A stretch of 41,582 nucleotides of DNA from contig JADFJG010000001.1 of NCBI GenBank assembly GCA_022566265.1, positions 63,647 through 105,228 of the forward strand. Direction: 5' to 3'. The stretch is from Pseudomonadota bacterium. GTDB taxonomy: Bacteria; Pseudomonadota; Alphaproteobacteria; SMXQ01. The first letter of the stretch is position 1, and each line of letters opens with the position of its first letter. The position numbers were made by a program, and so were the translations under genes. The notes beneath the pieces were generated by a model. It saw nothing but the letters and a program-made list of their open reading frames with translations, was not told where the DNA came from and did no database searches. This document shows positions 11,994-32,266 of this stretch, piece by piece.

Positions 11994-12263
11994 GCGGTGT
12001 GATGTCTGATCGTCGGCTGCGCGCTCGAGCACTTCCACCTGCCTCAGCACGAGCAAGATGGACTCCTCGCTATGAACGCCTCGCTCAAGGACCAGATTAT
12101 TGCTAGTAGGGGGGCGAGGCGCCTCTAGCCACCAGCCTGAGTGCCTAGTTCTCGCTAGGTTGTTGCCAAGCGGTTTGTGCGAAGGTGGCTCGCCAGCACC
12201 TCTCCGACTTGGCTCTCTTATGAACTGAACTGTAGCGTGATGAGTGTCGGTTACGACTACCTA

Positions 12264-14870: not shown

Positions 14871-14878
14871 ATTGAGAT

Positions 14879-17930: not shown

Positions 17931-20156
17931 ATGATGAGGCGAGGATTGTGGGGCGTCGTATTCATGGTCATGGGCGTCGCATTGATGACCGTGGCCCCCT
18001 CGGTGAAAGTCACCGCCCAGGTTCCCGATGCCGTTCTGGCCTGGCCGGATATTTTATACGTCAATGGCAGGATCGTGACCTTCGATGATACCAAGGTGAA
18101 CGACAACCCCGGGTCCGTCGTCGAGGCCATGGCGGTGCGTGACGAGAAGATCCTGGCCCTTGGGTCCCGGCGCGATATCATGAAGATGAAGGGGCCGAAG
18201 ACCGAGGTGGTGGACCTCAAGGGCGCCAATGTCCTGCCCGGCCTCATCGACAGCCACAATCATATCCAGGGCCCGGCGGCGAGGCGGGCGACCAGCATCT
18301 TCAAGCTGTCCACCACGACACCAGGCTATTACGTGAGAATCAAGGTCGAGAAGACCCCCGAGGAGACCCTCGCCAAGATCAAGAAGGCGATCGACCAGCT
18401 GCGCGCGGCGGTGAAGGTGGGCAAGGATGACTGGATCAGCATCGAACTCAAACGCGACAAGAAAAAGGGCTACCCGTCGATTGCCACGGTTTCGCACCTG
18501 ATGGATACCAAGGACCCGAAGGACGCCAAGATCACCCAGCGGCACCTCGACGGGATGGTGCCCGATCGCATGTTCCTGGTCCATAGCGCGGCGGGGATTC
18601 AACGCCTGAGGCGCATAAAGATGAACCAATGGTTCCGGGTCGACCGGGGTCCCGACGGCAAGCCCATTAAGAAGCCGCTGTTCAAGATCAAGTTCTCGTG
18701 GCTGCCATGGCAATACCGCACACCGCCCGGACGCCCGATCCTGTCCGCCATGGCGCTCGATCACGAGCGTGGGATCATCGCCGCGGACACGCCGGCGAGC
18801 CACCGGATCAACCTTCTCAATTCCTATGGATATGAGCGCACCAAGGAGCTGTGGCCCGACATCGATGGGGCGCTGACCAAGGACGACCGGGGCATGAAGG
18901 ACGCGGCAAAACGGGGGCTGATCAAATCATCGCCCTTGCGCGGCGAGCTCCAGGATATCTGGAAGTCGAAGCCCACCCCGGCGCAATTCGCCGAGGGGGT
19001 CAAGTCGACCGCCTTCGACCGCATCTGGAAGCTTGGCGTCACCCAGATCAGCACCCGGCTCGACGAGCCGTTCGAGGTGGCGGGCTTCTACAATTTGTGG
19101 CGCGAGGAAAAACGCGTGCCGTACCGCATCGGCTGGCACTACGAACATCACCGGCTGCCCGCCGTGGGCCCGGAGGTTTCGCGGTCCCTCTACACCACCA
19201 TCGGCAACCAGTCGGTGGGCGCCGATTACAATGCCTGGGTCTGGCTGCTCGGCGTCGGCTCCGAGGGCGACGGCGATTCCGTCACCCGGGCCTGCCTCGG
19301 CCCCGATCTTCCGGCGCTTCCCGGCAAGGAAAAATACGTCAAGGAGGAACTCGAGCGCTGCCCGCCCTGGGTGAGGGGTGACAAGAAAAACCTCGGCCCC
19401 TTGGGCGAGGGCGTGTGGAAAGCCCTCAACACCGGCTGGAGGATGGTCGGCCTGCATGGCGTCGGCAGCCACATGATCCGGTTGTTCGTCGATCGGCTCG
19501 AAGAGGCGATGAAGATGAATCCCGATATGACGCTGGAGCGGGTTCGCGCCGCCCGGCACGGGTTCTCCCACGGGACGATGATCGGCAAGGTGCCGGAAGT
19601 GATGGCGATGGCCCGCAAATACAATCTCTACCTGCCGGTGGACGTGGCCCGCAGCATTCGCGACGAGACCGAGGCCATCGACGCGTTCTATGGCCCCGAA
19701 GGCTATGAGTTCCAGGCCCCGATCGCCAGCATGATCGATGCCGGCGTGAAGGTCCTGGCCGACGATGCCAGCTTCGAGGACGTCGAGGTCTTCGTCACCC
19801 GGAACAATCCGGATACCAAAAAGACCATGCAGCCCAAGGAGAAGATCGATCGTGTCACCTCCTACAAGCTGCACACCATCATTCCCGCCGAGTTCAATTT
19901 CTCGGATACGCTGACCGGCAGCCTGGAGGTCGGCAAGTTCGCCGACTTTATCGTCATCGACAGGGACTTCCTCGACACCAAGGCGGTGCCCGACGACAAG
20001 ATCGGCGATATCAAGGTGTTGATGACGGTGATATCCGGCGCCGTGGTGTGGACAAACGATGCCGCGCCCGAGGCGCTGAAGAAGTTGCCGCATGTCTATG
20101 GACGCCAATACAAGCTGCACCGGAAAGCAAAATACGCGTTGGGCAGCACGGGATAA
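17931..20156 (+). CDS. Exported metal-dependent amidohydrolase (Amidohydro_3/YtcJ-like), copy 1
   Basis: Signal peptide MMRRGLW...VTA/Q; VDLKGANVLPGLIDSHNH (HxH), GLHGVGS, HGFSH, GSLEVGKFADFIVIDRD, VLMTVISG. Confidence 0.88.
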   Translation: MMRRGLWGVVFMVMGVALMTVAPSVKVTAQVPDAVLAWPDILYVNGRIVTFDDTKVNDNPGSVVEAMAVRDEKILALGSRRDIMKMKGPKTEVVDLKGANVLPGLIDSHNHIQGPAARRATSIFKLSTTTPGYYVRIKVEKTPEETLAKIKKAIDQLRAAVKVGKDDWISIELKRDKKKGYPSIATVSHLMDTKDPKDAKITQRHLDGMVPDRMFLVHSAAGIQRLRRIKMNQWFRVDRGPDGKPIKKPLFKIKFSWLPWQYRTPPGRPILSAMALDHERGIIAADTPASHRINLLNSYGYERTKELWPDIDGALTKDDRGMKDAAKRGLIKSSPLRGELQDIWKSKPTPAQFAEGVKSTAFDRIWKLGVTQISTRLDEPFEVAGFYNLWREEKRVPYRIGWHYEHHRLPAVGPEVSRSLYTTIGNQSVGADYNAWVWLLGVGSEGDGDSVTRACLGPDLPALPGKEKYVKEELERCPPWVRGDKKNLGPLGEGVWKALNTGWRMVGLHGVGSHMIRLFVDRLEEAMKMNPDMTLERVRAARHGFSHGTMIGKVPEVMAMARKYNLYLPVDVARSIRDETEAIDAFYGPEGYEFQAPIASMIDAGVKVLADDASFEDVEVFVTRNNPDTKKTMQPKEKIDRVTSYKLHTIIPAEFNFSDTLTGSLEVGKFADFIVIDRDFLDTKAVPDDKIGDIKVLMTVISGAVVWTNDAAPEALKKLPHVYGRQYKLHRKAKYALGSTG

Positions 20157-20249
20157 GCGGAACCGATAAAAGGTATATTTTTGGCGGGGGTTCCCCGGTT
20201 TCCTGAAGCCCTCGGGAAAAATTATAAATTTCTGGGAAGGACGATCGAC

Positions 20250-22475
20250 ATGAAGAGGCGAGGATTGTGGTGCGTTGTGTTCGTGGTCATGGGCGTTGCC
20301 TTGATGACCGTGGCCCCCTCGGTGAAAGTCACCGCCCAGGTTCCCGATGCCGTCCTGGCCTGGCCGGATATTTTATACGTCAACGGCAGGATCGTGACCT
20401 TCGACAATACCAAGATGAACGACAATCCCGGGTCCATCGTCGAGGCCATGGCGGTGCGTAACGAGAAGATCCTGGCGCTGGGGTCCCGGGGCGAGATCAT
20501 CAAGATGAAGGGGCCGAAGACCAAGGTGGTGGACCTCAAGGGCGCCAATGTCCTGCCCGGCCTCATCGACAGCCACAATCATATCCAGGTCCGGGCGGGG
20601 GTCCGGGCGACGCAGATCTTCAAGCTGTCAACCACCACGCCCGGCTATTACGTGAGAATCAAGGTCGAGAGGACGCCCGAGGAGACCCTCGCCAAGATCA
20701 AGAAGGCTGTCGACCAGCTGCGCGCGGCGGTGAAGGTGGGCAAGGATGACTGGATCAGCGTTGAGCTGAAACGCGACAAGAAAAAGGGCTACCCGTCGAT
20801 TGCCTCGGTGTCATTCCTGATGGATGCAAAGGACCCTAAGGATGCCAAGATCACCCAGCGGCACCTCGATGAGATGGTGCCCGATCGCATGTTCGTGGTC
20901 CACAGCGCCGCCGGGATTCAACGCCTGAGACGCATCAAGATGAACCAATGGTTCCGGATCGACCGGGGGCCCGACGGCAAGCCCATTAAGAAGCCGCTGT
21001 TCATGATCAAGTTCTCGTGGCTGCCGTGGCAATACCGCACGCCGCCGGCGCGCCCGATCCAATCCGCCATGGCGCTCGATCACGAGCGTGGGATCATCGC
21101 CGCGGACACGCCGGCGAGCCACCGGATCAACCTTCTCAATTCCTATGGATACCAGCGCACCAAGGCACTGTGGCCCGACATCGATGGGTCGTTGACCAAG
21201 GATGCCCGGAGCATGAAGGACGCCGCCAAACGGGGGCTGATGAAATCATCGCCCCTGCGCCACGAGTTCATGGAGGTCTGGAAATCTAAGCCCACCCCGG
21301 CGCAGTTCGCCGAGGGGGTCAAGTCGACGGCGTTCGACATCATCTGGAAACTTGGCGTCACCCAGATCAGCACCCGGCTCGACGAGCCGTTCGAGGTGGC
21401 GGGCTTCTACAATTTGTGGCGCGAGGAAAAACGCCTGCCCTACCGCCTCGGCTGGCACTACGAGCAACACGCAATGCCTGCCATAGGCCCGGCGGTCTCG
21501 CGGTCCCTCTATACCACCATCGGCAACCAGTCGGTGGGCGCCGATTACAACCCCTGGACCTGGCTGCTTGGCGTCGGCTCCGAGGGCGACGGCGATTCCG
21601 TCACCCGGGCCTGTCTCGGCCCCGATCTTCCGGCGCTTCCCGGCAAGGAAAAATACGTCAAGGAGGAACTCGAACGCTGCCCGCCCTGGGTCAGGGGTGA
21701 CAAGAAAAACATGGGGCCGCTGGGCGAAAGCATGTTGAAAGCCCTCGACACCGGCTGGAGGATGGTCGGCCTGCACGGCATCGGCAGCCACATGATCCGG
21801 TTGTTCGTGCACAGGCTTGAAGACGCGATGAAGAAGAATCCCGACCTGACCCTGGAGCGGGTTCGCGCCGCCCGGCACGGGTTCTCCCACGGGACGATGA
21901 TGGGCAAGGTGCCGGAAGTGATGGCGATGGCCCGCAAATACAATCTCTACCTGCCGGTGGATGTGGCGCGAAGCATTCGCGACGAGACCGAGGCCATCGA
22001 CGCGTTCTACGGTCCCGAAGGCTATGAGTTCCAGGCCCCGATCGCCAGCATGATCGACGCCGGCGTCAAGGTCCTGGCCGACGATGCCAGTTTCGAGGAC
22101 GTCGGGGTGTTCGTCACCCGGAACAATCCGGATACCGGAAAAACCATGCAGCCCAAGGAGAGGGTCGATCGCGTCACGTCTTACAAGCTGCACACCATCG
22201 TTCCCGCCGAGTTCAATTTTTCCGAGACGCTCACCGGCAGCCTGGAGGTCGGCAAGTTCGCCGACTTTATCGTCATCGACAGGGACTTCCTCGATACCAA
22301 GGCGGTGCCCGACGACAAGATCGGCGATATCAAGGTGTTGATGACGGTGATATCCGGCGCCGTGGTGTGGACCCACGACGATGCGCCCGAGGCGCTGAAG
22401 AAATTGCCGCATGTCTACGGACGCCAATACAAGCTGCACCGGAAAGCAAAATACGCGTTGGGCAGCACGGGATAA
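20250..22475 (+). CDS. Exported metal-dependent amidohydrolase (Amidohydro_3/YtcJ-like), copy 2
   Basis: ATG at 20250 gives the same 2226-nt length as copy 1; same motifs; very similar sequence. Confidence 0.88.
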   Translation: MKRRGLWCVVFVVMGVALMTVAPSVKVTAQVPDAVLAWPDILYVNGRIVTFDNTKMNDNPGSIVEAMAVRNEKILALGSRGEIIKMKGPKTKVVDLKGANVLPGLIDSHNHIQVRAGVRATQIFKLSTTTPGYYVRIKVERTPEETLAKIKKAVDQLRAAVKVGKDDWISVELKRDKKKGYPSIASVSFLMDAKDPKDAKITQRHLDEMVPDRMFVVHSAAGIQRLRRIKMNQWFRIDRGPDGKPIKKPLFMIKFSWLPWQYRTPPARPIQSAMALDHERGIIAADTPASHRINLLNSYGYQRTKALWPDIDGSLTKDARSMKDAAKRGLMKSSPLRHEFMEVWKSKPTPAQFAEGVKSTAFDIIWKLGVTQISTRLDEPFEVAGFYNLWREEKRLPYRLGWHYEQHAMPAIGPAVSRSLYTTIGNQSVGADYNPWTWLLGVGSEGDGDSVTRACLGPDLPALPGKEKYVKEELERCPPWVRGDKKNMGPLGESMLKALDTGWRMVGLHGIGSHMIRLFVHRLEDAMKKNPDLTLERVRAARHGFSHGTMMGKVPEVMAMARKYNLYLPVDVARSIRDETEAIDAFYGPEGYEFQAPIASMIDAGVKVLADDASFEDVGVFVTRNNPDTGKTMQPKERVDRVTSYKLHTIVPAEFNFSETLTGSLEVGKFADFIVIDRDFLDTKAVPDDKIGDIKVLMTVISGAVVWTHDDAPEALKKLPHVYGRQYKLHRKAKYALGSTG

Positions 22476-22556
22476 ACCGAACCGATATAAAGACACTTTC
22501 GCTCCGTTCATACTTCGGCATGAACGGAGCGAAAATTTATCAGTGGGGGCAACGCT

Positions 22557-23567
22557 TTGACGACACAGGAACTGCGTGAAGGGCAGCTTTCGCTCGACGA
22601 AGTCCATTCCAAGATGAAGATGCTGGAGGCCGAGATCCACAAGCGCATCGTGGGCATGGACGAGTGCATCAAGTACACCCTGATCTGCCTGTATGCGGGC
22701 GGGCATATCCTGATCGAAGGGGTGCCGGGTCTCGCCAAGACCCTCTTGTTCAAGACCTTGGCCGAAGCGACCCACGAGGAATTTCGCCGCATTTCCTTCG
22801 CCGCCGACCTGCTGCCGAAGGACATCGTCGGGATCGAGCATTTCGATCCCGTCACCAAGCAGGTGGAACTGGTGGTGAAGGGGCCGATTCATACCAACAT
22901 CTTGCTTGCCGACGAGCTCAACCGCGCGCGCACCACTTCCAAGGGGTCGATCCTCGAACCGATGGAGGAGGGCCAGGTGACGACCGAGCTCGGCGGGACC
23001 TACAAGCTCGGCAAGATGTTCATGGTGGTGGCGACGCAGAACCCGGTGGAAGAGGAAGGCACGTTCGGTCTCGGACGCGCCGAGAGGGACCGCTTCTTGA
23101 TGATGGTGCCGATCGGCTATCCGACGCCGGAAGAGGAGGAAGCCATCATCCAACGCTACGGCGTCGAGGGCGGCATGCCCCCGGTCACTCCGGTGGTGGG
23201 CGAGGACGATATCCTGGCCGCGCGCCAGGCCATGCGGACACTGGTTCACGTGGAGCCCGCCATCGTCGGCAAGATCCAGCAGATCGTCAACCAAACGCGG
23301 CCCGAGCGGAGCTCGATCGACGAGGTGCGCCGGCTGGTCGAAATTGGCGGCGGCGGTTCGCCCCGGGCCGGCATCTATATTATCCAGTCCGCGCGCGTGC
23401 ATGCCGCTTTTCGGGGCAACGAATTCGTCACGCCCCAGGATATCGCCGAGGTGCTGATGCCGATCTTCCGTCATCGCATCGTCTTCAAGCCAGGCGAAGT
23501 CGAACCGGAGGACAGCGAAATGCGCATCGCCGAAATCGTCGACAAGGTCATCAGGGAAGTGCTGTAG
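22557..23567 (+). CDS. moxR: MoxR-family AAA+ ATPase (MxaR-like)
   Basis: GHILIEGVPGLAKT (Walker A), DLLPKDIVG, LLADELNRA (Walker B), VATQNPVEEEGTF, DRF, GSPRA, RHRI. Confidence 0.95.
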   Translation: MTTQELREGQLSLDEVHSKMKMLEAEIHKRIVGMDECIKYTLICLYAGGHILIEGVPGLAKTLLFKTLAEATHEEFRRISFAADLLPKDIVGIEHFDPVTKQVELVVKGPIHTNILLADELNRARTTSKGSILEPMEEGQVTTELGGTYKLGKMFMVVATQNPVEEEGTFGLGRAERDRFLMMVPIGYPTPEEEEAIIQRYGVEGGMPPVTPVVGEDDILAARQAMRTLVHVEPAIVGKIQQIVNQTRPERSSIDEVRRLVEIGGGGSPRAGIYIIQSARVHAAFRGNEFVTPQDIAEVLMPIFRHRIVFKPGEVEPEDSEMRIAEIVDKVIREVL

Positions 23568-23569
23568 CC

Positions 23570-24469
23570 TTGGACCGGAAGGAACTACTGCGCGAAATAC
23601 CCCGAACACCCATACGCTTCGTTCCGAGAAAACGGGTGGTCACCTTGCAGCCGGGGCAGTGGACCAGCCCCCATGAAGGCAAGGGATTCGAGCCCATGGG
23701 CTACCGGGACTTCGTGATGGGCGATGACCCGCGCCGCATCAATCTCCCGGCATCTTCGCGCCGCGGCACGCCGACGGTGGTCGAACGCGTGGCCCTGCGG
23801 GAGCTCAAAATGATGGTGGTGGTGGACCGTTCGGCGTCCATGGGGGTCCGCGACAAGCTCGCCATCCAGTTGCAAGCGGCCGCCCTTTTGCTGTATTCCG
23901 CGTGGAAATCGGACATGACGTTCGGATTGGCGGCGAGGACCGAGGACGGCCTGCTCGGCTTTGGCCAGGGATTGGGCTCGCGCCATTTCTATCGCCTCTA
24001 CCGCACTTTATGGACCCTCTTCGGGGACGCGGGGGACGGGCGGATAAAGGGCATACGCATGGCTCTGAGCCGGTGCCTGCCGCCCAACGCGATTCTCATT
24101 TACTGCTCGGATTTCCTCGACGGCCGGGGCAGCCTGGTCGACCTGTCCCATCTTGCCAAGGGCGGCCGGCGCTACGATTTCATCCCGGTGATCGTTCAGG
24201 ACGCCCTCGAATACAGTTTCCCCCTGGTCGAGAAAGGAACCTTCGTGAGCTTCGCCAATCCCGAGACCGGCGCGCGGGAAGAGGCATGGATATCGCCGAA
24301 AACGTCACAAAGGGTCCGCGCCACGCACGAGGCGCGGTTCAAGGAACTGACGACGGTGCTGGGCGTGCGCGGGGTCGGGTATCTTCACCTCGACAGTCCG
24401 CGACTGGGGGACATCGGCACCCGATTCAACCGGTTCTTCCAGCAACGAAAAAGCGGGGGGGCGGTGTGA
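23570..24469 (+). CDS. DUF58 protein (MxaS-like MoxR partner)
   Basis: TTG start 2 nt after the moxR stop; GKGFEPMGYRDFVMGDDPRRINLPASSR and VVDRSASM motifs. Confidence 0.88.
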   Translation: MDRKELLREIPRTPIRFVPRKRVVTLQPGQWTSPHEGKGFEPMGYRDFVMGDDPRRINLPASSRRGTPTVVERVALRELKMMVVVDRSASMGVRDKLAIQLQAAALLLYSAWKSDMTFGLAARTEDGLLGFGQGLGSRHFYRLYRTLWTLFGDAGDGRIKGIRMALSRCLPPNAILIYCSDFLDGRGSLVDLSHLAKGGRRYDFIPVIVQDALEYSFPLVEKGTFVSFANPETGAREEAWISPKTSQRVRATHEARFKELTTVLGVRGVGYLHLDSPRLGDIGTRFNRFFQQRKSGGAV

Positions 24470-26180
24470 TACCTTTCGCGCGCAGCCGCCTTGTCGTGTT
24501 CGCGGCGCTGGCCGCCGCCGGCGCCGTCTTGGCGGGCGGGCTGGTGGTCGGCTCCTCGATGATGGGCTGGCCGAGCCAGTTGTTCCGCTTCACCCAGGCG
24601 CCGCCCGAGGCGCTGCCCGAGGGCACCGATATCGCCGGTTGGGCGTCATTCGACCGCGACAGCTATTTTATCGGCGAAACCATACGATACCGGGCGCGCA
24701 TCCTGTATCGGCGTGACCGGATCGTGCCCAACCTCGATACCTTCATGCGCAGCCTGCCTTTCTTTCCATTCGAAAAGCGCCAAGGCTTCGAGTCCACGCG
24801 CGGGCTTGACGGCGATATCGAGGAGTATCGGCTCGATTACCTGTTGCACGGCGTGAAGGTCGAGCCGCCAAGGACCTACCAGCTGGACCCGGCGGTGGTG
24901 TTCTATCAGCCCAAGACCGCGTCCGCCGGTCAATTGCAATCGATCAGGATTCCGACGCCGGCCATCCATATCACCGAATATTATCCCAGGGACATTTCCG
25001 CGATCCCGCTACTGGCCCTCAAGGGGACGATCCACGACCCGGCCCGGCTCCGGCAATGGCTGATCGGGGTGAGCGGCGGAATCCTCCTGGCGTTCGCCGG
25101 TTTCCTGCCGTGGTGGTTCGCCCGCCGGCGCCGCGCGGATGAGCTTTCCGAGCCGGAACGTCTGTGGCGTGAGTTCCATGACATCGACCGCGCCTCTGCG
25201 ATGCGCGTGCCTACCTTCTCAGGTGCGAGCGTATTTTTTCGCGCCTTCTCCAGACCCGCACCCGAACCGGCCCCAGATCCTTGTGGGCGGGCGACTATCC
25301 CGAGGACGCGTTCTGGCAAGACGCCGCGGCAAGGGCCCATCGCGGCTTGCGGGACCTCTACCGGCGATCGGGTCTTTCCGAAGACGACGTGCGGCGGATA
25401 AGCGGGCTGCTCGACCTCGATGCCATTTTTTCCTCCATCGTCGCCGAGGACCGGCTGCGCCGGGAGAAGGAGCCGTCTTTCGCCGCCCGCCTGCGCCGGC
25501 AACCCCGGGTTCTCGCCGCCGCCGGGTTTTGCCTCGCGGTGGCGGCGCTGATGTTCGCGCTGGCGGCGCGGCCCGGGGTGTGGCTGTCGCCCGATGTGGC
25601 GCGCTATAACAAGGCCGTGGCGGCCTCCTCCGGCGACCTCCCGTTGATCGAGGATGCCTTCGCCATGTCGGCGCTCGGCAACCGGGTCGAGGACGGGACC
25701 ATCAAGGCGGCGGCGCTGTATAACGCCGGAACCGCGCTGGCGCATTTGAGAGAATCCCGCGACACGCCGCTCCGCGAGCAGGAGCTGTTCGAAGCGCTGT
25801 TCAATGAAAAGGCGTCCCTGGCGGCCTATCTCGACACCCCGGAAGAGGTCGAGCTGTTCCTCAAGAGCGAGAAGTGGCTGCGCCAGGCCGAGCGCCATCT
25901 GCAAGAGGCGGCGCGCGCGGATCTGGGCGATGAGGACATCCGCAGAAACCTGGAACTGGTGATCAAGCGGCACCGGGCCGTGTTGGGCGCGCTCAGGGCC
26001 TTGTTCGAGGCGGGCCGGGGGGGAGGAGCCGCCAGGAAGGGCGCCAAGGGCATCAAGCTCAAGGACTCCCAACGCAAGGCCATTGTCGACGTACTCAACA
26101 TGAAGTGGCCGGACAAGTTCAGGGACGAGAAGGGCGAAGGCAAAAAGGACACGGGCTACGGTGTCTCGGAGCATTATTAA
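24466..26180 (+). pseudogene. Membrane protein, MxaA/BatD-like N-terminus fused to an MxaK/BatC-like TPR C-terminus; one apparent frameshift at ~25200
   Basis: GTG start overlaps the DUF58 TGA. The first frame gives TM-DSYFIGET...-TM up to REFHDIDRAS. The -1 frame continues DARAYLLRCERIFSRLL...TM...ALYNAGT...LQEAARADLGDEDIRRNLELV to the stop at 26180. It could be a sequencing error or two separate genes. Confidence 0.65.
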
Positions 26181-26222
26181 GACACCCCGCGCGACGGCGG
26201 GGCTTCAAGGTGTGACCAGGCG

Positions 26223-27350
26223 GTGAATGTCATCGGCGACATCATCGATTCCGTGAGTTTCACCGCCCCCGCGGGGTTCCTGGTGAGCCTTCCTTTCTTT
26301 GCGCTGATTGGCTGGCAACTGGCCAATCGCGGCGGACGCGGCACGGTTGCCCTCACCGGACTGGAGTATCTTTCCGCCCATAGCTGGTTTTCCGCGGCGC
26401 CAAGACGGTGGCTGCGCGCCGGGCTCTGGGGGCTGCTGGCGGCGGCGATCGGCGTGCTCTGGGCGGGCCCGGTGGTTCACTCGGACCGGCCCCTGTTCGC
26501 CGGCGCCAACCAGACCGTTCACAAGAATTTCGTCCTGTTGTTGGACATCTCGCGGTCGATGACCGTTTCTCTGGGCCAGGAGAAAAACGTCTCCCTTCCC
26601 GGCCAACCGGCACCACCGCCAACGGACGGCGGCAAGGACAAGAAGGACAAGAAGGAGAAGGTGCCGCGTTATCAGGCCGCGCGCGAAGCCCTGATGGATT
26701 TCGTCGCCCGATTCGACGGTGAGCGCATCGGGCTTATCCTGTTCAGCACCGAACCGATCCTGGCCCGCTGGCCGACGGTGGAAACAGAGAACCGGTTCTG
26801 GGAGGTCCTCGAGGAAGACATCGGCCAAGGCGTGGACTCCCAGATCCAGGCCTTTTCGTCCTTGACCAATACCAACAAGGCGCTCGCCCTGGCGCGCGAC
26901 GTGTTCGCCAGCCAGGATGTCGTCGGCGACGGCGCCGTCATCTTGATTACCGATGCCGAGGACGACGTGCGGAACATCGGCGTGGCCGCCCGCAACCTGC
27001 GAAAGGACGGGATCAGGCTCTATATCATCGGCGTCGGCATCTCCCAGAAAATCGCCGACGGCCTGTCGCGGGACTTCGCCGCCGATCCGGGATTCCGGAT
27101 ATTCCGGGTCGATTCCGAGAGTGAGATGCGCGAAGCCTATAGGCTGGTCGGCGAGGTCGAGGAACTGCCCCGGTTCAGGCTGAACCGGAAAGAATTCACC
27201 ACCGACATCCGTTGGATCCTGGCGCTCGCCGTGATGGTGTTGGCGGGCGCCATCCTCTGCATCCTTAACGTCGCCTTCCACCAGTCGCCAGCCGCGGGTG
27301 GAAGCGTGGCCAATGCCGAAGGGGGCCGCCATGGGCTTCGCATTTCCTGA
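26223..27350 (+). CDS. Membrane-anchored VWA-domain protein (MxaC/BatA-like)
   Basis: Two N-terminal TMs; MIDAS LLDISRSM, RIGLILFS, TNTNKAL, ILITDAED; C-terminal TM. Confidence 0.9.
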   Translation: MNVIGDIIDSVSFTAPAGFLVSLPFFALIGWQLANRGGRGTVALTGLEYLSAHSWFSAAPRRWLRAGLWGLLAAAIGVLWAGPVVHSDRPLFAGANQTVHKNFVLLLDISRSMTVSLGQEKNVSLPGQPAPPPTDGGKDKKDKKEKVPRYQAAREALMDFVARFDGERIGLILFSTEPILARWPTVETENRFWEVLEEDIGQGVDSQIQAFSSLTNTNKALALARDVFASQDVVGDGAVILITDAEDDVRNIGVAARNLRKDGIRLYIIGVGISQKIADGLSRDFAADPGFRIFRVDSESEMREAYRLVGEVEELPRFRLNRKEFTTDIRWILALAVMVLAGAILCILNVAFHQSPAAGGSVANAEGGRHGLRIS

Positions 27351-28317
27351 GGCCTTTGTCCTTATCGTCGTGCTGCCGCCCGTGATCTGGGTACTGTGGC
27401 GGGGCGAGCGGCGGGCCCGGAGCGCGCTTCGCGCGTTCCATGCGCCCGCGCCCGGAAGATGGCACTTCATCTGCCGCGCCGCCCTCGCCGCCTTGTTCAT
27501 CGCCTCGTTGGTCGCCATCGGGGCGCGGCCCTATACCGAGACCCGCAGCACCGGTGATTTTCTTTTTCTCGTCGATGTTTCGCGCAGCATGAATGCGCGG
27601 TATTCCTGTGGCGAGCCGACCTTCCTCGATCGCTCGAAAAAGGTCATGCGCGACGTGATCGCCAAGGTTCCCGAGGGCAAATTCGGCATCGTCGCTTTCG
27701 ACAGGCTGGCCATTCCCATCACCCAGATGACCTACGATCGCGCCTATCTCGAGGAGGTGATCGAGCACGGGCTGTTCGTCGGGCTGAGCTATCAATCGAC
27801 GGCGACGAAGATCGGAAACGCGCTTTCCGTCGTCGCCGGGAAGAAGAATCGCCTGCCGGAAATCTATGGCAATGTGTCCCAGGTGATTCTTCTAAGCGAC
27901 GGCCATGTCGGGGGCAGCTACCAGAGACGGCTTCAAGGGGCCTTGGAGGAACTGCGAAAAACCGGGATCATGGTTCTCAGCGTGGGGATCGGCAATCCCG
28001 GAGAAACGCCGATCCCGGCGCGGGCGCCGGGTGGCGCATGCACCCGCGAGCTCGCCAGCGCCGAGGGCAAAACCGTTCTCATCCCTCTGCGCGACGACAT
28101 CCTGACCTTCATCGCCGCCGGGACCCGGGGCAAATACTTTGGCGAGGGCGCGACGGGCGCCCTGGTGAAGTTCCTGAGGGAGACCGGCCTGAGAAAAATC
28201 TCCCCCGGCGTGGTGCTCGACAAGAAACAGCGCGCCGACGCCAGTTTTTGGTTTCTCGTGTTCGGCACCATCGCGGCGTTCGGGCTGTTCATGGCCAACA
28301 CGTTAAGAATGGGATGA
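27331..28317 (+). CDS. Membrane-anchored VWA-domain protein (MxaL/BatB-like)
   Basis: Overlaps the previous stop; two N-terminal TMs; MIDAS LVDVSRSMNA, GIVAF, TKIGNAL, ILLSDG, VGIG; C-terminal TM. Confidence 0.9.
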   Translation: MGFAFPEAFVLIVVLPPVIWVLWRGERRARSALRAFHAPAPGRWHFICRAALAALFIASLVAIGARPYTETRSTGDFLFLVDVSRSMNARYSCGEPTFLDRSKKVMRDVIAKVPEGKFGIVAFDRLAIPITQMTYDRAYLEEVIEHGLFVGLSYQSTATKIGNALSVVAGKKNRLPEIYGNVSQVILLSDGHVGGSYQRRLQGALEELRKTGIMVLSVGIGNPGETPIPARAPGGACTRELASAEGKTVLIPLRDDILTFIAAGTRGKYFGEGATGALVKFLRETGLRKISPGVVLDKKQRADASFWFLVFGTIAAFGLFMANTLRMG

Positions 28318-28448: not shown

Positions 28449-29396
28449 CTAGCGTGCCCGCTTCCGCTTCGCCTTTGCCCCGACGCGCTTGCGCTTGACC
28501 TTCAGCCCGGCCCGCTTCATCACGCCGTCGAGCCTTTTCGCCACCGCGGCCGTCGCCGGCACCATCGGCAGGCGGTGCTCGTTCTTCTCCAATATCCCCA
28601 TCCGCATCATGATGTATTTGATCGGGATGGGGTTGGTGTCGAAGAACACCGCCTCGTTGAGCTCGGCGAGCTCGTAGTGGAGTTTGCGCGCCTCCCCGAG
28701 CCGCCCCTTGGCCGTCATCTCATAGAGATCGGCGACCTTGCGCGGCGCCACGTTGCCGACCGCGTTCATCATCCCGGCGGCGCCGATACAGAGCATCGGG
28801 AAGCTCAGGTCCTCGAGCCCGACGAAGACCCTGAAATCGAAGCCGAAGCGCGCCAGCATGTGGGTGACGAAGCCGAGGTCGTTGACCGCGTGCTTGATGC
28901 CGACGAGATTCGGCGTCTTCTCGACGATGCGTTCCAGCGTCGAAAGCTGGATCGAGACCGCCGCGCGCCCGGGGATGTGATAGATCATCATCGGCAGGGC
29001 GGTGCGCCGGCCGAGGCGGATGTAGTACTGGGCGAGGCCGCGCTGGGGCGGGCGGATGTAATAGGGCGTCACCACCAAAAGGGCGTCGGCGCCGGCTTTC
29101 TCCGCCCCTTCGCCGAGCACCGTGGTCTCGGCCTCGTTCTGCGAGCCGGTCGCCGCCACCACCGGCACGCGGCCCGCCGCCGCCTCGACGGCGACCTCGC
29201 AGAGGGCGATGCGCTCCTCGATGGTGAGCGTGCTCGGCTCGCCGGAGGTGCCGGTGACGACGATGCCGTGGCTGCCCTCGGCGATCTGGTGCTCCACCAA
29301 TCGGGCGTAGGTGTCGTAATCCACCTTGCCACGTTTGAGCGGGGTGACGAGGGGCGGATAGGAGCCGCGCAGGAAGTTCCGTTTCAGTTTTATCAA
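28449..29396 (-). CDS. DapA/NAL-family class I aldolase (HpaI-not-DapA or hydratase-aldolase type)
   Basis: LRGSYPPLVTP, GTSGE, VTPYYIRP, IYHIPGR, VGIKHA (Schiff-base Lys), TNPIPIK; lies in a catabolic context. Confidence 0.85.
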   Translation of the reverse strand: MIKLKRNFLRGSYPPLVTPLKRGKVDYDTYARLVEHQIAEGSHGIVVTGTSGEPSTLTIEERIALCEVAVEAAAGRVPVVAATGSQNEAETTVLGEGAEKAGADALLVVTPYYIRPPQRGLAQYYIRLGRRTALPMMIYHIPGRAAVSIQLSTLERIVEKTPNLVGIKHAVNDLGFVTHMLARFGFDFRVFVGLEDLSFPMLCIGAAGMMNAVGNVAPRKVADLYEMTAKGRLGEARKLHYELAELNEAVFFDTNPIPIKYIMMRMGILEKNEHRLPMVPATAAVAKRLDGVMKRAGLKVKRKRVGAKAKRKRAR

Positions 29397-29414
29397 GGCG
29401 CTTGCCGCCCTTTT

Positions 29415-30548
29415 CTAATTGGTTACCGCCTTTTCCCGGTTGGTCTCGAAGCCGGCGTGGGAGCCGAGCAAGGAGACCGGACCCTTGAGCTCTTCCTGCC
29501 ACAACAGCGAATCCATGTTGATGTTGAGCGGCATGTCCTGGATCGTCAGCTCATAGACCGGCCCTTCGTCCGAGGCATGGTTGTGGATCGCCCAGCCCGG
29601 CGCCGAAAGCATCAGGTCACCGGCCTTCCACGGGTAGCGCTTGCCTTCGACCACGCTGTAGCCGTTGCCGGCGAAGTAGTAGTTCAGCGCCGCCGAGGCA
29701 TGGCGATGCGGTCGGTCGACGATGCCGCCGGGGCGGATGGTGAGGGTAGCGAAAAAGTTCGGCGTCGTGCCGTTGGTGCGCCCGGTGACCGGATCGTAGA
29801 GCAGATAGAGGCGCCGGCCCTTATATTTCGGACCCAGGCTCACCAGCTTGTCGAGCTCCACCTTGACTTTCTTCCATGGCCAATGGTGGGGCTTGATCTC
29901 GACCGGTTCGGGGTTGATGAGCTTCTCGTAAGGCATCAGCCAGCCGCCGTCCTCGGTGAGCTCGAAGGTGCCGTAGGGGTTCTGGGATCCCTCCTCCATC
30001 TCCTCCGCCGCCTCGGTCATGTCATTGTCCGGGGCGCCGTGGAGTGGCGGGTCCTCATCCACCAGGTGGATGTTCAGCCGCTCGAGCATGGCGCCGTTGG
30101 AGTAGCGCAGACGCACCTGCATATCGCCGGTCTCATTGACATATTCGTGCACCGCCATCGATGGCGTGGTGATGACGTCGTACTGGCTGAATTCGAAGGT
30201 CTCGCCGTTGATCGCCATGGAACCCGCGCCCTGGATGCAGAAGTTGACGATGTTCGAGTTCTGGCGCACTCGCTGGGTGCGCTCGCCCGGCAACAGGACA
30301 TCGACGGAGACATCGATACCCGGCGCCAGGCCGAGGCTGCGGTCGTCGGCCTCGGGATGGGCGATCATCGAACGGCGCACGCCGTTGTTGGGACGCGCAA
30401 AACCCGCGAGCCGCGCGACCTCGGCCTCGATGTCCTCCTTGGAGATCACCACCGGCGGCCAAAGGTCGAGCGAATGATCGCCGTGGATATGCTTGTCCGG
30501 TGTCTGCCGGCCCGACTTATCGACGAATTTCGCTTTCGGATCACTCAT
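29415..30548 (-). CDS. Bicupin ring-cleaving dioxygenase (gentisate / 1-hydroxy-2-naphthoate 1,2-dioxygenase family)
   Basis: ATG 30548 with GGAGG RBS; N-cupin LLPGE...ITTPSMAVHE; C-cupin PHRHASAA...WKAGDL...PGWAIHNH; IQDMPL. Confidence 0.8.
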   Translation of the reverse strand: MSDPKAKFVDKSGRQTPDKHIHGDHSLDLWPPVVISKEDIEAEVARLAGFARPNNGVRRSMIAHPEADDRSLGLAPGIDVSVDVLLPGERTQRVRQNSNIVNFCIQGAGSMAINGETFEFSQYDVITTPSMAVHEYVNETGDMQVRLRYSNGAMLERLNIHLVDEDPPLHGAPDNDMTEAAEEMEEGSQNPYGTFELTEDGGWLMPYEKLINPEPVEIKPHHWPWKKVKVELDKLVSLGPKYKGRRLYLLYDPVTGRTNGTTPNFFATLTIRPGGIVDRPHRHASAALNYYFAGNGYSVVEGKRYPWKAGDLMLSAPGWAIHNHASDEGPVYELTIQDMPLNINMDSLLWQEELKGPVSLLGSHAGFETNREKAVTN

Positions 30549-30589
30549 CGTTACCTCCCTCCTGTTCGCCCCAATGATGGCCCCTGGGG

Positions 30590-31588
30590 TCAGGTCAGAT
30601 TCGGTGTCGTGCGCTTGGGATGGGGATATTTCGCCCCCACCCCCCGATCCACCGCCCGGCGGTAGATCTCGACGGCGGACGCCATGTCGGCCATCCCCAT
30701 GCCCATGAACTTGTATATGGTGATATCGGCGTCGCCGGGGCGCGCTTTTTGCTCCTCGACCAGCTTGCAGATGGGGACGACATCGTCCCAGCCGCCGTTG
30801 GCGGGGCCGAAATAATCGATCAGCTCCTTGGAGCCCTTCTGGCATTGGGCCATGTTGTCGACCACCACCTTGGTACAGCGCGCAAATACGTCCTGGGCGA
30901 TCTCGGCGTTGGCCGGGATGATGGCGCCGCCGGCGTTGATGTGGGCGCCCGGCGCCACCATGGCGGCAAACAGGAACGGCTCCTTGGCCCGGGTGAAGGT
31001 GGTGATGATCGGCGCGTCCTTGACCGCGGCCTCGACCGAGGGGCAGTCGAGGACCTCGAATTCGTATCTCGACTTCAGCAGGGCGACGAACTCGGCGCGG
31101 TTCTCAGGTGTCGGGCTGAACACCCGGACGCGCTTAAGCGCGCGCACCGTCGCCACCGCCGCGACCTGGGGCAACGCCTGATGGCCCGAGCCGATGATCG
31201 CAAGCTCGTCCGCGTCCTCCCCGGATAGCCATTTGGTGGCGACGGAGGAGAGCGCGGCGGTGCGCATCTGGCCGAGCGAAAAAGCCTCGATGATGGCGCG
31301 GATCTGGCCGTCGTCGCTGCCGTGGAGGACCATGATCGGCGCCGCGCCACCGTGGGCGTTGCTCCATACCTTGACCCCCACCAGGCCGTCGCCGGTGAAC
31401 TGCGCCCCGGTGACGTTGAGGCTGCCGCCCGGCCACACGGTCTGGGTCTTGGTCATGTTCTGGGCCTTGCCCTGGGCCTCGAGCAGAAGCCCCTTCTCGA
31501 GCGCCTCGATGGAACCGCTCAAATCGATCAGCGAGCAGACATCGGTCTCGGTCAGCCACAAAAAGCTATCGGGAACCTCGATTGCCAT
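30590..31588 (-). CDS. Ornithine cyclodeaminase / mu-crystallin family NAD(P)-dependent imine reductase
   Basis: GVKV, LGQMRTAALSSVATKWL, IIGSGHQA, GAHINAGGA, YKFMGMGMAD. Confidence 0.88.
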   Translation of the reverse strand: MAIEVPDSFLWLTETDVCSLIDLSGSIEALEKGLLLEAQGKAQNMTKTQTVWPGGSLNVTGAQFTGDGLVGVKVWSNAHGGAAPIMVLHGSDDGQIRAIIEAFSLGQMRTAALSSVATKWLSGEDADELAIIGSGHQALPQVAAVATVRALKRVRVFSPTPENRAEFVALLKSRYEFEVLDCPSVEAAVKDAPIITTFTRAKEPFLFAAMVAPGAHINAGGAIIPANAEIAQDVFARCTKVVVDNMAQCQKGSKELIDYFGPANGGWDDVVPICKLVEEQKARPGDADITIYKFMGMGMADMASAVEIYRRAVDRGVGAKYPHPKRTTPNLT

Positions 31589-31655
31589 CCTCAATTCCTC
31601 CCCGATGGCGATGGAACCGGCGTCTCGAACCCCAAGGCGTTCAGGACCGGGGCGC

Positions 31656-32216: not shown

Positions 32217-32266
32217 CCTAAACCCCCGTCGGCCCGGCGCCGGCCCATGTTGGCCAAAAGCATTCC

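What the first reader, a model, noticed from the sequence alone, without database searches (positions are those of the whole stretch)
17931..28317. mxaRSACKL-like MoxR/VWA maturation module attached to exported amidohydrolases instead of methanol dehydrogenase
Seen in sequence: two exported HxH metallo-amidohydrolases are followed on the same strand, with short gaps or overlaps, by MoxR, DUF58, a TM/TPR protein and two MIDAS-intact membrane VWA proteins. Established: in methylotroph mxaFJGIRSACKLD clusters, the enzyme genes are followed by mxaR (MoxR), mxaS (DUF58), mxaA, mxaC (VWA), mxaK (TPR-like) and mxaL (VWA), which are needed to make active, Ca2+-loaded MDH. The order here (enzyme, R, S, A+K, C, L) nearly reproduces that, but no PQQ dehydrogenase is in the window. 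Inference: this is a dedicated envelope-spanning metal-loading or folding chaperone whose client is a periplasmic amidohydrolase. I know of no described client of this type for these systems.
Basis: partly seen in the sequence, partly recalled or inferred. Interest (0 to 1): 0.85.

Follow-up and report, generated by a model that had tools for sequence, protein, structure and literature searches.

The report
Amidohydrolases with their own Mxa-like module
Two exported metal-dependent hydrolase genes sit in front of a MoxR ATPase and membrane VWA protein set like the one that loads calcium into methanol dehydrogenase, and this pairing recurs in distant marine bacteria, pointing to a new client for such machines.

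Summary
Window 17931-28317 (+ strand) holds two 741-aa signal-peptide Amidohydro_3 paralogues (91% identical), MoxR (AAA_3), DUF58, one membrane gene with no Pfam family, and two TM-TM-VWA-TM proteins with intact MIDAS motifs. That membrane gene is 571 aa and intact in relatives. The window breaks it by a 1-nt deletion near 25198, which other samples lack. Its two halves match MxaA and MxaK weakly and in the same order (hhalign 31% and 72%; controls 0.5% or less).

The link to the amidohydrolase is not chance. Among module copies found without using the amidohydrolase as query, 15 of 17 evaluable ones have an amidohydrolase-clade gene 96-487 nt upstream on the same strand, at identities down to 24%. 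The membrane protein family is tiny (21 hits in 5.8 billion proteins). Both genes are missing from 28 of 31 genomes of the window's order. The genome holds no PQQ dehydrogenase or MxaI.

The likeliest reading is a dedicated Mxa-type periplasmic maturation or metal-loading module whose client is the amidohydrolase. The function is inferred, not shown. I found no paper describing this. I rate it a new variant of a known kind.

The parts
17931..20156 (+). AH1: exported 741-aa Amidohydro_3 (YtcJ-like) metal-dependent hydrolase, the proposed client
   Evidence: PF07969 scores 91.5 bits. H109/H111/H509 are invariant and H547 nearly so in 104 relatives. It has a single N-terminal hydrophobic segment at aa 9-27. 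The AF2 model has pLDDT 84.7. The best Foldseek hits are 3icj and 3igh, E 1.8e-18, TM 0.68 normalised to the target.
20250..22475 (+). AH2: tandem paralogue of AH1, 91% identical, with about 60 nt of duplicated 5' leader
   Evidence: These are the only two copies in the genome.
22495..22536 (.). 19-bp perfect-stem hairpin in the AH2-MoxR spacer. It could be a partial terminator, an RNA-stabilising element or a processing element.
   Evidence: On the + strand it is followed by AATTTATC only, so it is not a canonical T-tract terminator. Its function was not tested.
22557..23567 (+). MoxR-type AAA+ ATPase, cytoplasmic, with no TM segment
   Evidence: AAA_3 scores 151.4 bits and AAA_lid_2 54.9 bits. 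Walker A GVPGLAKT and Walker B LLADE are readable in the translation. It belongs to a separate 19-row clade with SH-aLRT 100. It is 65-70% identical to orthologues in gammaproteobacterial clusters.
23570..24469 (+). DUF58 (MxaS-like) protein, cytoplasmic, with a DxSxS motif
   Evidence: PF01882 scores 73.3 bits. hhalign against MxaS gives 98.1%. No TM segment.
24466..26180 (+). MxaA-like plus MxaK-like fusion membrane protein, 571 aa when intact, broken in the window by a 1-nt deletion near 25198. Predicted layout: TM1, a 175-aa periplasmic domain, TM2, a 132-aa cytoplasmic loop, TM3, a 204-aa periplasmic helical domain.
   Evidence: It is one ORF in L001 and L006. A 99%-identical intact protein, P0125, exists. 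Contigs of DNA run X1 (18 of 18 depth) and one contig of RNA-library run X20 carry a net +1 nt at 25194-25198. hhalign gives 31% (E 5e-4) against MxaA and 72% (E 3.5e-5) against MxaK.
26223..27350 (+). VWA7: TM-TM-VWA-TM membrane protein with an intact MIDAS motif; the VWA domain is predicted to be periplasmic
   Evidence: VWA scores 39.9 bits. MIDAS is kept in 18 of 18 relatives. hhalign gives 97.3% against MxaC and 92.4% against MxaL. Topology is and by analogy with BB0173 (PMC5700661, abstract and passages read).
27298..28317 (+). VWA8: second TM-TM-VWA-TM MIDAS protein. Its true start may lie a few codons downstream of 27298.
   Evidence: VWA_2 scores 40.6 bits. MIDAS is kept. hhalign gives 97.8% against MxaC and 96.9% against MxaL.

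Best explanation
The region is one conserved accessory gene cluster. It encodes one or two Sec-exported, YtcJ-type amidohydrolase-superfamily enzymes together with their own Mxa-type MoxR/VWA inner-membrane machine.

Proposed mechanism:
1. The apo-hydrolase reaches the periplasm unfolded.
2. Two membrane proteins (VWA7, VWA8) present MIDAS-bearing VWA domains to the periplasm.
3. A fusion protein supplies an MxaA-like and an MxaK-like periplasmic domain, joined by a 132-aa cytoplasmic loop.
4. The cytoplasmic MoxR ATPase with its DUF58 partner acts on the cytoplasmic parts of these proteins.
5. ATP-driven remodelling on the periplasmic side then opens or loads the hydrolase's metal site. This parallels MxaRSACKL, which is needed for Ca2+ incorporation into methanol dehydrogenase.

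Shown here: gene content, motifs, predicted topology, deep conservation of the AH-module pairing, and absence of an MDH-type client.

Inferred: binding, the identity of the metal, ATP coupling across the membrane, and that the hydrolase rather than another protein is the client.
For: 1. Parts.
- Amidohydro_3 x2, AAA_3, DUF58 and VWA x2 are present.
- The 571-aa gene aligns collinearly to MxaA (N half) and MxaK (C half) from 10 real mxaRSACKLD clusters. hhalign gives 31% (E 5e-4) and 72% (E 3.5e-5). It gives 0.5% or less against MxaR, S, C, L and D.

2. Synteny from the AH side.
- Of 18 genome loci found with the AH, 12 have 800 nt or more downstream.
- 9 of the 12 have the module directly downstream.

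3. Synteny from the module side.
- 24 module copies were found with the fusion protein or MoxR as query.
- 17 have 300 nt or more upstream. 15 of the 17 have an AH-clade gene ending 96-487 nt upstream on the same strand, at 24-91% identity to AH1.
- The exceptions are L038 and L087.

4. Rarity. The fusion family has 21 hits at E<=1e-3 in 5.8 billion proteins. Only about 16 full-length AH homologues at 34% identity or more were listed.

5. Co-inheritance.
- AH and VWA identity matrices correlate over 11 loci: Spearman 0.55-0.60, reached by 0-3 of 2000 permutations.
- In the window's order (31 genomes) the AH is in 2 and the fusion in 3. Both are absent from 28, including the same-genus genome G570, which is 97% complete.

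6. No alternative Mxa-type client. There is no PQQ dehydrogenase and no MxaI in the 94.7%-complete genome. A second, generic MoxR operon (BatA_N+DUF4159 type) lies elsewhere.

7. Compartment. VWA7 and VWA8 have the TM-TM-VWA-TM layout of BB0173, whose VWFA domain was mapped to the periplasm (PMC5700661, abstract and passages). The AHs have signal peptides.

8. Precedent. All six of mxaR, S, A, C, K and L are needed for Ca2+ incorporation into MDH reconstituted in E. coli (PMC12276312, passages read).

9. Presence in RNA libraries. Pieces of AH1, AH2, MoxR, DUF58, the fusion gene and VWA7 occur at 99% identity in contigs of three metatranscriptome libraries from two studies. This is a weak hint of expression, because DNA carry-over is not excluded.
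Against: - No experiment or structure shows binding or metal transfer.
- The MxaA and MxaK similarities are weak. The MoxR is only 28% identical to MxaR and forms its own clade.
- 3 of 12 evaluable AH loci (L002, L004, L005) have no adjacent module, and 2 of 17 module copies (L038, L087) have no adjacent AH. Adjacency is therefore not obligatory.
- In L006, L009, L017, L018 and others the cluster lacks MoxR-DUF58, which lie up to about 0.9 Mb away.
- Other exported or envelope proteins recur nearby in gammaproteobacterial loci and could be clients: PQQ dehydrogenase in 5 of 51 loci, Abhydrolase_10 in 9 of 51, TonB-dependent receptors, and a CopD-cytochrome c fusion in 9 of 51.
- The hairpin between AH2 and MoxR means co-transcription is not established. 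No RNA-library contig listed bridges that spacer.
- Most amidohydrolases, from recalled general knowledge, acquire metal without a chaperone.
- The Mantel correlation is expected for any genes inherited as a unit.
Confidence: 0.5

Rival explanations
1. The cluster is a functional unit, but the amidohydrolase is a pathway enzyme rather than the client. The module would mature or regulate another envelope protein of the same nutrient-acquisition locus, such as a TonB-dependent receptor, a PQQ dehydrogenase, an alpha/beta hydrolase or a CopD-cytochrome c. The AH would simply be co-expressed.
For: - Gammaproteobacterial loci carry several other envelope genes: 3-4 tandem divergent TonB-dependent receptors, a CopD+cytochrome c fusion directly after VWA8 (9 of 51 loci), Abhydrolase_10 (9 of 51) and PQQ dehydrogenase (5 of 51).
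- L038 and L087 have the module without an adjacent AH.
- Cupin, OCD, DHDPS and CMD genes recur beside the AH or the module (window; L005 and L038).
Against: - None of these other genes is in the window's cluster or in L001, L085 or L086.
- The window genome has no PQQ dehydrogenase.
- The AH is the only partner that is both near-universal and immediately adjacent on the same strand: 15 of 17, plus 9 of 12.
Confidence: 0.22
2. The module is a scaffold or switch rather than a metal inserter. The periplasmic MIDAS/VWA and MxaA/K-like domains would tether the soluble hydrolase, or its two halves in the split forms, at the inner membrane. MoxR would gate assembly or activity in response to the cytoplasmic state.
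For: - In relatives the AH is split into two separately exported polypeptides at the loop that is disordered in the window model. L002 has a TAA stop, then GGAG, then ATG, then a new signal-like segment. The low-pLDDT segment is 257-289. Such halves would need assembly.
- From recalled general knowledge, MIDAS domains are protein-binding modules.
Against: - There is no evidence of tethering.
- The closest characterised system (Mxa) affects metal content, not localisation (PMC12276312, passages).
- The window's AHs are single-chain.
Confidence: 0.15
3. This is a generic Bat-like MoxR/VWA envelope-homeostasis operon that merely lies beside unrelated hydrolase genes.
For: - MoxR-DUF58-VWA operons are widespread, and the Bat operons have no established client (PMC3557215, abstract in listing; PMC5700661).
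- VWA8 gives weak sub-threshold hits to the Leptospira BatA and BatB models.
- The protein-atlas neighbours of the fusion protein are BatD+TPR clusters at 0.77-0.78. That score is a lead only.
Against: - The AH-module adjacency persists down to 24-35% AH identity in alpha- and gamma-proteobacteria and in paralogous copies within one genome.
- The genome already has a separate generic MoxR operon.
- The MoxRs of these clusters form their own clade, apart from the generic paralogues of the same genomes.
- The BatA_N and BatD Pfam families are not detected.
Confidence: 0.05

Closest known systems
mxaRSACKL accessory genes of the methanol dehydrogenase cluster (mxaFJGIRSACKLD) of methylotrophs
   Same: - The parts list matches: a MoxR ATPase, a DUF58 protein, an MxaA-like membrane protein with a periplasmic domain, an MxaK-like TM plus helical protein, and two TM-VWA-TM proteins.
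- The module lies directly downstream of genes for a Sec-exported periplasmic metalloenzyme.
- Profile matches: MoxR/MxaR 99.9%, DUF58/MxaS 98%, VWA/MxaC 97-98%, VWA/MxaL 92-97%, fusion/MxaK 72%, fusion/MxaA 31%.
   Different: - The client candidate is an amidohydrolase-superfamily enzyme, not a PQQ quinoprotein. The genome has no MxaF, MxaI or PQQ dehydrogenase.
- A and K are fused and precede both VWA genes (R-S-AK-C-L instead of R-S-A-C-K-L).
- No MxaD or MxaJ is present.
- The MoxR is 28% identical to MxaR and in a separate clade.
- The metal is unknown.
Bat (Bacteroides aerotolerance) type MoxR-DUF58-BatA/B-BatC-BatD operons, e.g. Borrelia bb0170-bb0176
   Same: - MoxR plus DUF58 plus two membrane VWA proteins with the TM-TM-VWA-TM layout. 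The VWA domain of BB0173 was mapped to the periplasm (PMC5700661).
- A further membrane protein combines a BatD-like and a TPR-like part, as in the fused BB0170 (passage read).
- The atlas neighbours of the fusion protein are BatD+TPR clusters at 0.77-0.78.
   Different: - No BatA_N, BatD or TPR Pfam hit.
- NCBIfam BatA and BatB scores are far under their cut-offs (36 against 380).
- Bat operons have no assigned client, whereas this module has a constant enzyme neighbour.
Other MoxR/VWA metal-insertion or remodelling pairs (NorQ/NorD, CoxD/E/F, CbbQ/CbbO, RavA/ViaA)
   Same: An AAA+ MoxR-family ATPase works with VWA/MIDAS proteins encoded beside a specific metalloenzyme client. The NorQD abstract was seen in the listing. 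The other pairs are recalled from memory.
   Different: Those pairs act in the cytoplasm or on the cytoplasmic face of the membrane, with soluble VWA partners. Here the MIDAS domains are predicted to be periplasmic and the client is exported.
YtcJ-like Amidohydro_3 hydrolases (PDB 3icj, 3igh)
   Same: The fold matches (Foldseek E 1.8e-18 and 3.8e-16, TM 0.68 normalised to the target). The HxH motif and later histidines are conserved.
   Different: The window enzymes are about 270 aa longer, with large insertions. They are exported, have an invariant Cys pair (C455, C477), and are split into two genes in some relatives. The substrate is unknown.

Membership tests
Amidohydrolase superfamily, Amidohydro_3 (PF07969) | Profile score above the curated cut-off | tested here: met
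   91.5 and 96.6 bits against a cut-off of 29.7.
Amidohydrolase superfamily, Amidohydro_3 (PF07969) | HxH at the first barrel strand and later His ligands | tested here: met
   H109, H111 and H509 are invariant and H547 is kept in 90% or more of 104 aligned sequences.
Amidohydrolase superfamily, Amidohydro_3 (PF07969) | Acidic residue at strand 8 | tested here: inconclusive
   Position 611 is D, D or E in the three clades of alignment A1. HMMER aligns the PDB GTD Asp one or two residues away. Model coordinates could not be inspected.
Amidohydrolase superfamily, Amidohydro_3 (PF07969) | TIM-barrel plus beta-sandwich fold | tested here: met
   The AF2 model has pLDDT 84.7 and pTM 0.84. The top Foldseek hits are all amidohydrolases, led by 3icj and 3igh.
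Amidohydrolase superfamily, Amidohydro_3 (PF07969) | Metal-dependent hydrolytic activity | not testable with these tools
   Needs purified protein, metal analysis and a substrate screen.
MoxR (MRP-type) AAA+ ATPase | AAA_3 core plus AAA_lid_2, and Walker A/B motifs | tested here: met
   151.4 and 54.9 bits. GVPGLAKT and LLADE are read in the translation.
mxaRSACKL system | MxaR-like and MxaS-like genes adjacent | tested here: met
   hhalign gives 99.9% and 98.1% against alignments from 10 mxa clusters.
mxaRSACKL system | MxaA homologue | tested here: inconclusive
   hhalign probability 31%, E 5e-4, 143 columns in the periplasmic domain. Controls give 0.5% or less. No BLAST similarity.
mxaRSACKL system | MxaK homologue | tested here: inconclusive
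   hhalign probability 72%, E 3.5e-5, 96 columns in the helical domain. No BLAST similarity.
mxaRSACKL system | Two membrane VWA proteins (MxaC, MxaL) | tested here: met
   hhalign gives 97-98% against MxaC and 92-97% against MxaL. This does not tell which of the two window proteins corresponds to which.
mxaRSACKL system | Gene order R-S-A-C-K-L | tested here: not met
   Here A-like and K-like are one gene placed before both VWA genes. The 10 mxa clusters all have R-S-A-C-K-L-D.
mxaRSACKL system | Linked PQQ methanol dehydrogenase MxaF/MxaI | tested here: not met
   G000 has no match to PF02315. PF01011 gives only a weak repeat match in a 462-aa ORF of the 94.7%-complete genome.
mxaRSACKL system | MoxR orthologous to MxaR | tested here: not met
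   28% identity. The two form separate groups with full support in a quick ML tree of 34 rows.
mxaRSACKL system | Needed for metal incorporation into the linked enzyme | not testable with these tools
   Shown for Mxa in PMC12276312 (passages). Untested here.
Bat operon (BatA-E) | BatA N-terminal domain PF07584 in the VWA proteins | tested here: not met
   Not reported at E<=0.01. It is found in the genome's other MoxR operon (58.6 bits).
Bat operon (BatA-E) | BatD (PF13584) and TPR proteins | tested here: not met
   No hit, even at E<=10, for the fusion protein. The only support is an atlas lead at 0.77-0.78.
Bat operon (BatA-E) | TM-TM-VWA(MIDAS)-TM architecture | tested here: met
   Hydropathy and charge pattern and MIDAS motifs.

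The most novel reading that the evidence does not exclude
Mxa/Bat-type MoxR-DUF58-VWA inner-membrane sets are a general class of ATP-powered machines that work across the membrane to complete the metal sites of Sec-exported periplasmic enzymes. This cluster would be the first case with a non-quinoprotein client, an amidohydrolase-superfamily enzyme. Cytoplasmic ATP hydrolysis would be relayed through the 132-aa cytoplasmic loop of the MxaA/K-like fusion to periplasmic MIDAS domains. Those domains would hand a divalent cation to, or open, the apo-hydrolase. In relatives they might also assemble its two separately exported halves.
Probability: 0.35. Interest if true: 0.8.

Novelty: new variant of a known kind. 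Interest (0 to 1): 0.66.

Why it matters
MoxR/VWA operons of the Mxa and Bat type are among the most widespread bacterial gene sets without a mechanism. Methanol dehydrogenase is the only well-defined periplasmic client.

A second, unrelated client would do three things:
- It would argue that these modules are general periplasmic metalloenzyme maturases.
- It would give a compact five-gene system with a simple readout (hydrolase activity and metal content) for asking how a cytoplasmic AAA+ motor acts on a periplasmic target.
- It would explain why such exported amidohydrolases may fail in heterologous expression without their module.

It also marks out a rare enzyme clade of marine-sediment bacteria. 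That clade sits in nutrient-uptake loci and its substrate is unknown.

Tried and rejected
- **Complex prediction.** AH1 residues 31-741 with the VWA8 periplasmic domain 76-314 returned 'no answer' (score 0.00, mark 0.32). It is evidence neither way. Only VWA8 was tried, not VWA7 or the fusion domains.

- **First AF2 model of AH1.** A 14-row alignment gave pLDDT 48.4 and the model was discarded. A 104-row alignment gave a usable model. I could not inspect coordinates, so active-site geometry is unchecked.

- **RNA and tRNA scans.** No Rfam family and no tRNA in the window. The low-GC stretch at 12-16 kb is not an rRNA operon.

- **PADLOC.** No defence-system model matches any of the six proteins, so a conflict-system reading was dropped. 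The bpMoxR Pfam hit (30 bits) is far below AAA_3 (151 bits).

- **Promoter and terminator scan.** Two promoter-like sites were found against 2.4 expected by shuffling, so they are not informative.

- **Pairwise BLAST of the fusion protein against MxaA and MxaK.** Nothing significant. Only profile-profile comparison gave a signal.

- **Pfam at E<=10.** No family for the fusion protein, MxaA or MxaK. MxaK gives TPR_11 at E 0.11.

- **RNA-library contigs.** Parts of the stretch have no cover (for example 19807-20608 and 21812-23014). No contig listed bridges AH2-MoxR. The tool states that holes prove nothing, so co-transcription remains open. The library contigs cannot exclude DNA carry-over.

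- **MoxR tree.** This is the quick tree. The careful search did not finish in the time allowed.

- **Rows left out of the synteny count.** L012 is cut before the fusion gene. L039 and L043 have a fusion gene too diverged for the TM5 query. Seven copies have 290 nt or less upstream: L035, L040, L090, L092, L095, L096 and L097. L095 has 290 nt upstream with no AH hit and is ambiguous.

Full report
**1. What is in the window**

The + strand between 17931 and 28317 carries eight reading frames that make seven genes.

- AH1 (17931-20156) and AH2 (20250-22475) are 741-aa proteins, 91% identical. They match Amidohydro_3 at 91.5 and 96.6 bits against a cut-off of 29.7. No NCBIfam model fits them above its cut-off.
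- Each has a single N-terminal hydrophobic segment and nothing else membrane-like. The RR in the window copies is not conserved in relatives, whose N-termini end in AQ-type sites. I read this as Sec export, which is an inference.
- H109-x-H111 and H509 are invariant, and H547 nearly so, in a 104-sequence alignment that includes ordinary YtcJ-like enzymes.
- An AF2 model built on that alignment is confident (pLDDT 84.7, pTM 0.84). Its best PDB neighbours are the YtcJ-like hydrolases 3icj and 3igh (E 1.8e-18 and 3.8e-16). Triazine, atrazine and molinate hydrolases and deaminases follow. The fold is not in doubt, but the substrate is unknown.
- Then come MoxR (22557-23567; AAA_3, 151 bits), DUF58 (23570-24469; 73 bits), a Pfam-less membrane gene (24466-26180), and two VWA proteins (26223-27350 and 27298-28317).
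- Downstream genes converge from the other strand: DHDPS-family, bicupin, ornithine cyclodeaminase-like and CMD-like.
- Upstream lie GlnRS, a low-GC type IIG restriction-modification-like island, a D-serine-dehydratase-like gene, and 1.3 kb without a recognisable gene.

**2. The frameshift**

- The 'TM/TPR protein' reads in two frames in the window.
- In the 87%-related locus L001 and in distant L006 it is one ORF of about 571 aa.
- The DNA alignment shows one base missing in the window.
- A 99%-identical intact protein, P0125, places the break between residues 244 and 246, which is window position about 25198.
- Contigs of a marine-sediment DNA run (18 of 18 depth units) and one contig of an RNA library carry a net +1 base at 25194-25198.
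- The gene is therefore intact in the population. The window's break is an assembly artefact or a rare allele.

**3. Is the module Mxa-like?**

I fetched real mxa clusters to test this.

- A search for MxaI (PF02315) found one hit in 401 genomes of the window's class.
- A search with that genome's MxaA found 12 matches among 151 genomes of that order, 10 of them strong.
- Ten loci all showed R-S-A-C-K-L-D.

Profile-profile comparison (hhalign in the script box) gave:

| Window protein | Mxa protein | Probability |
|---|---|---|
| MoxR | MxaR | 99.9% |
| DUF58 | MxaS | 98.1% |
| VWA7, VWA8 | MxaC | 97.3%, 97.8% |
| VWA7, VWA8 | MxaL | 92.4%, 96.9% |
| Fusion, N half | MxaA | 31% (E 5e-4; 143 columns inside the periplasmic domain) |
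| Fusion, C half | MxaK | 72% (E 3.5e-5; 96 columns in the helical domain) |
| Fusion | MxaR, S, C, L, D (controls) | 0.5% or less |

- The two weak matches are collinear and lie outside the TM segments.
- Pairwise BLAST sees nothing for A or K, and only 28% identity between MoxR and MxaR.
- In a quick ML tree of 34 MoxR sequences the cluster-linked MoxRs (19 rows) form one group. MxaR (10 rows) forms another, and the generic paralogues of the same genomes fall outside both (SH-aLRT 100 for each).
- The protein atlas lists the fusion's own 84-member cluster. After it come BatD+TPR clusters at 0.77-0.78, which are leads only.
- My reading is that this is a third lineage of the same architectural class as Mxa and Bat. 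It is not an Mxa orthologue.

**4. Topology**

- VWA7 and VWA8 each have TM1, a short loop rich in K and R, TM2, a VWA domain of about 240 aa and a C-terminal TM.
- This is the layout of Borrelia BB0173, for which the VWFA domain was mapped to the periplasmic side (PMC5700661, abstract and passages).
- The MIDAS residues are conserved across 18 relatives.
- The fusion protein has three TM segments. Its K/R-rich 132-aa middle loop is predicted cytoplasmic and both large domains periplasmic.
- MoxR and DUF58 have no TM segment.
- The predicted assembly therefore spans the inner membrane only.

**5. Is the amidohydrolase really linked to the module?**

*From the AH side.*
- The clade is rare. One search listed 12 full-length homologues at 50% identity or more and 4 at 34-35%, then shorter or much more distant YtcJ-like proteins.
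- A scan of one genome per species returned 18 loci.
- Twelve have 800 nt or more after the AH, and nine of those have the module directly downstream.
  - Five have MoxR-DUF58: L001, L011, L012, L013, L015.
  - Four go straight into fusion-VWA-VWA: L006, L009, L017, L018.
- L002, L004 and L005 do not have it. Yet the genomes of L002 and L005 carry 5 copies and 1 copy of the fusion gene elsewhere.

*From the module side.*
- The fusion family has only 21 hits in 5.8 billion proteins.
- Module copies were found with the fusion protein in four AH-bearing genomes, with MoxR in four more, and with the fusion alignment in a metagenome scan (16 loci). Together these gave 24 copies.
- Seventeen have 300 nt or more upstream. 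Fifteen of those have an AH-clade gene ending 96-487 nt upstream on the same strand, at 24-91% identity to AH1.
- The exceptions are L038, which has an EutA-like ATPase and TctAB upstream, and L087.
- The first two sets come from genomes chosen because they hold an AH. The metagenome set (6 of 7) is free of that bias.

*Where MoxR-DUF58 is missing locally.*
- An orthologue at 65-70% identity lies elsewhere in the same genome, against 39% or less for generic paralogues.

*Co-inheritance.*
- AH and VWA identity matrices over 11 loci correlate (Spearman 0.55-0.60; reached by 0-3 of 2000 permutations) and give the same three groups. Two of those groups coexist in single genomes. This shows inheritance and duplication as a unit, not function.
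- In the window's order (31 genomes, one family) the AH is in 2 and the fusion in 3, one of which sits at a contig start in an 86%-complete genome. Twenty-eight genomes lack both, including the same-genus genome at 97% completeness.

**6. Other candidate clients**

- The window's genome (94.7% complete) has no PQQ dehydrogenase and no MxaI.
- It has a second, generic MoxR operon of the BatA_N+DUF4159 type.
- In gammaproteobacterial relatives the cluster sits in larger loci that hold:
  - tandem divergent TonB-dependent receptors;
  - a CopD+cytochrome c fusion right after VWA8 (9 of 51 loci);
  - Abhydrolase_10 (9 of 51);
  - PQQ dehydrogenase (5 of 51);
  - TctABC, cupin and OCD genes.
- None is as constant or as close as the AH (34 of 51 loci hold one). 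They keep alive the rival that the AH is a co-expressed pathway enzyme.

**7. Expression and habitat**

- Near-identical DNA occurs in marine-sediment and marine metagenomes of nine studies.
- Contigs of three metatranscriptome libraries from two studies hold pieces of AH1, AH2, MoxR (low depth), DUF58, the fusion gene and VWA7.
- The tool warns that DNA can be present in such libraries. No listed contig bridges the AH2-MoxR spacer, which holds a 19-bp hairpin. Co-transcription is open.

**8. Mechanism, novelty and verdict**

- By analogy with MxaRSACKL, I propose that this module completes the metal site of the exported amidohydrolase. All six Mxa genes are needed for Ca2+ incorporation into MDH reconstituted in E. 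coli, and MDH from the mutants can be rescued by Ca2+ in vitro (PMC12276312, passages). MoxR/VWA pairs in general act in metal insertion (NorQD abstract).
- Binding, the metal and energy coupling are inferred. The one complex prediction gave no answer.
- Four literature searches found no paper that links a MoxR/VWA module to an amidohydrolase. The library lacks most subscription journals, so this is not proof of absence.
- I rate it a new variant of a known kind. It is well supported as a conserved gene cluster, with moderate confidence (0.5) in the maturation mechanism.

Noticed in passing
window 12177-15427: A 45-49% GC island in a 62-67% GC contig. It holds an 897-aa Eco57I / N6_Mtase / TaqI_C (type IIG restriction-modification-like) ORF and a 182-aa ORF without a family. 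It is probably horizontally acquired.
   Followed up: partly
window ~25194-25198: A single-base deletion splits the 571-aa fusion gene in this assembly only. Other samples show two indel haplotypes, both with the frame intact.
   Followed up: yes
L002 2904-5147 (also L004; proteins P0013-P0026): In a gammaproteobacterial clade the amidohydrolase is two genes: about 258 aa, then TAA, GGAG, ATG and a 486-aa protein that starts with its own signal-peptide-like segment. The split falls at the loop that is disordered (residues 257-289) in the window AH model. Fourteen database clusters are such C-halves.
   Followed up: partly
L006 16921-18630 and the equivalents in L009, L011, L013, L017, L018, L036, L040, L042: A CopD plus cytochrome c fusion (569 aa) directly follows the second VWA gene in 9 of 51 loci. 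After it come 3-4 tandem divergent TonB-dependent receptors. This may point to the metal or to the uptake route. It is absent from the window.
   Followed up: partly
L006 1239-3107; also L007, L008, L016, L083: A 622-aa PQQ-dependent dehydrogenase (PF01011, 176 bits) lies a few kb from the AH-module cluster in 5 of 51 loci. In those genomes a quinoprotein could share the module.
   Followed up: partly
window 28449-32399 (- strand); L005 6603-10254; L038 13867-17438: A DHDPS-family, bicupin, ornithine-cyclodeaminase-like and CMD-like gene block recurs next to an AH (L005). In part (cupin, OCD) it recurs next to a module without an AH (L038). It is likely part of the same catabolic pathway.
   Followed up: partly
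window 22495-22536: A 19-bp perfect hairpin in the 82-nt AH2-MoxR spacer. The AH1 and AH2 leaders share about 60 nt including the ribosome-binding site, so the duplication included the 5' leader.
   Followed up: partly
L068 (own genome, contig C6, 5518-12529, - strand): A second, generic MoxR operon: MoxR, DUF58, a 946-aa BatA_N+DUF4159 protein and a 715-aa protein without a family.
   Followed up: partly
window 38890-41580: An open-ended 897-aa sensor with a HAMP domain and five PAS_7 repeats (619 bits). It lies next to an NMT1-like binding protein and a UbiD-family decarboxylase.
   Followed up: no
L038 6422-7930: An EutA-like (reactivase-type) ATPase gene directly precedes MoxR in one of the two module copies that lack an adjacent amidohydrolase.
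   Followed up: no
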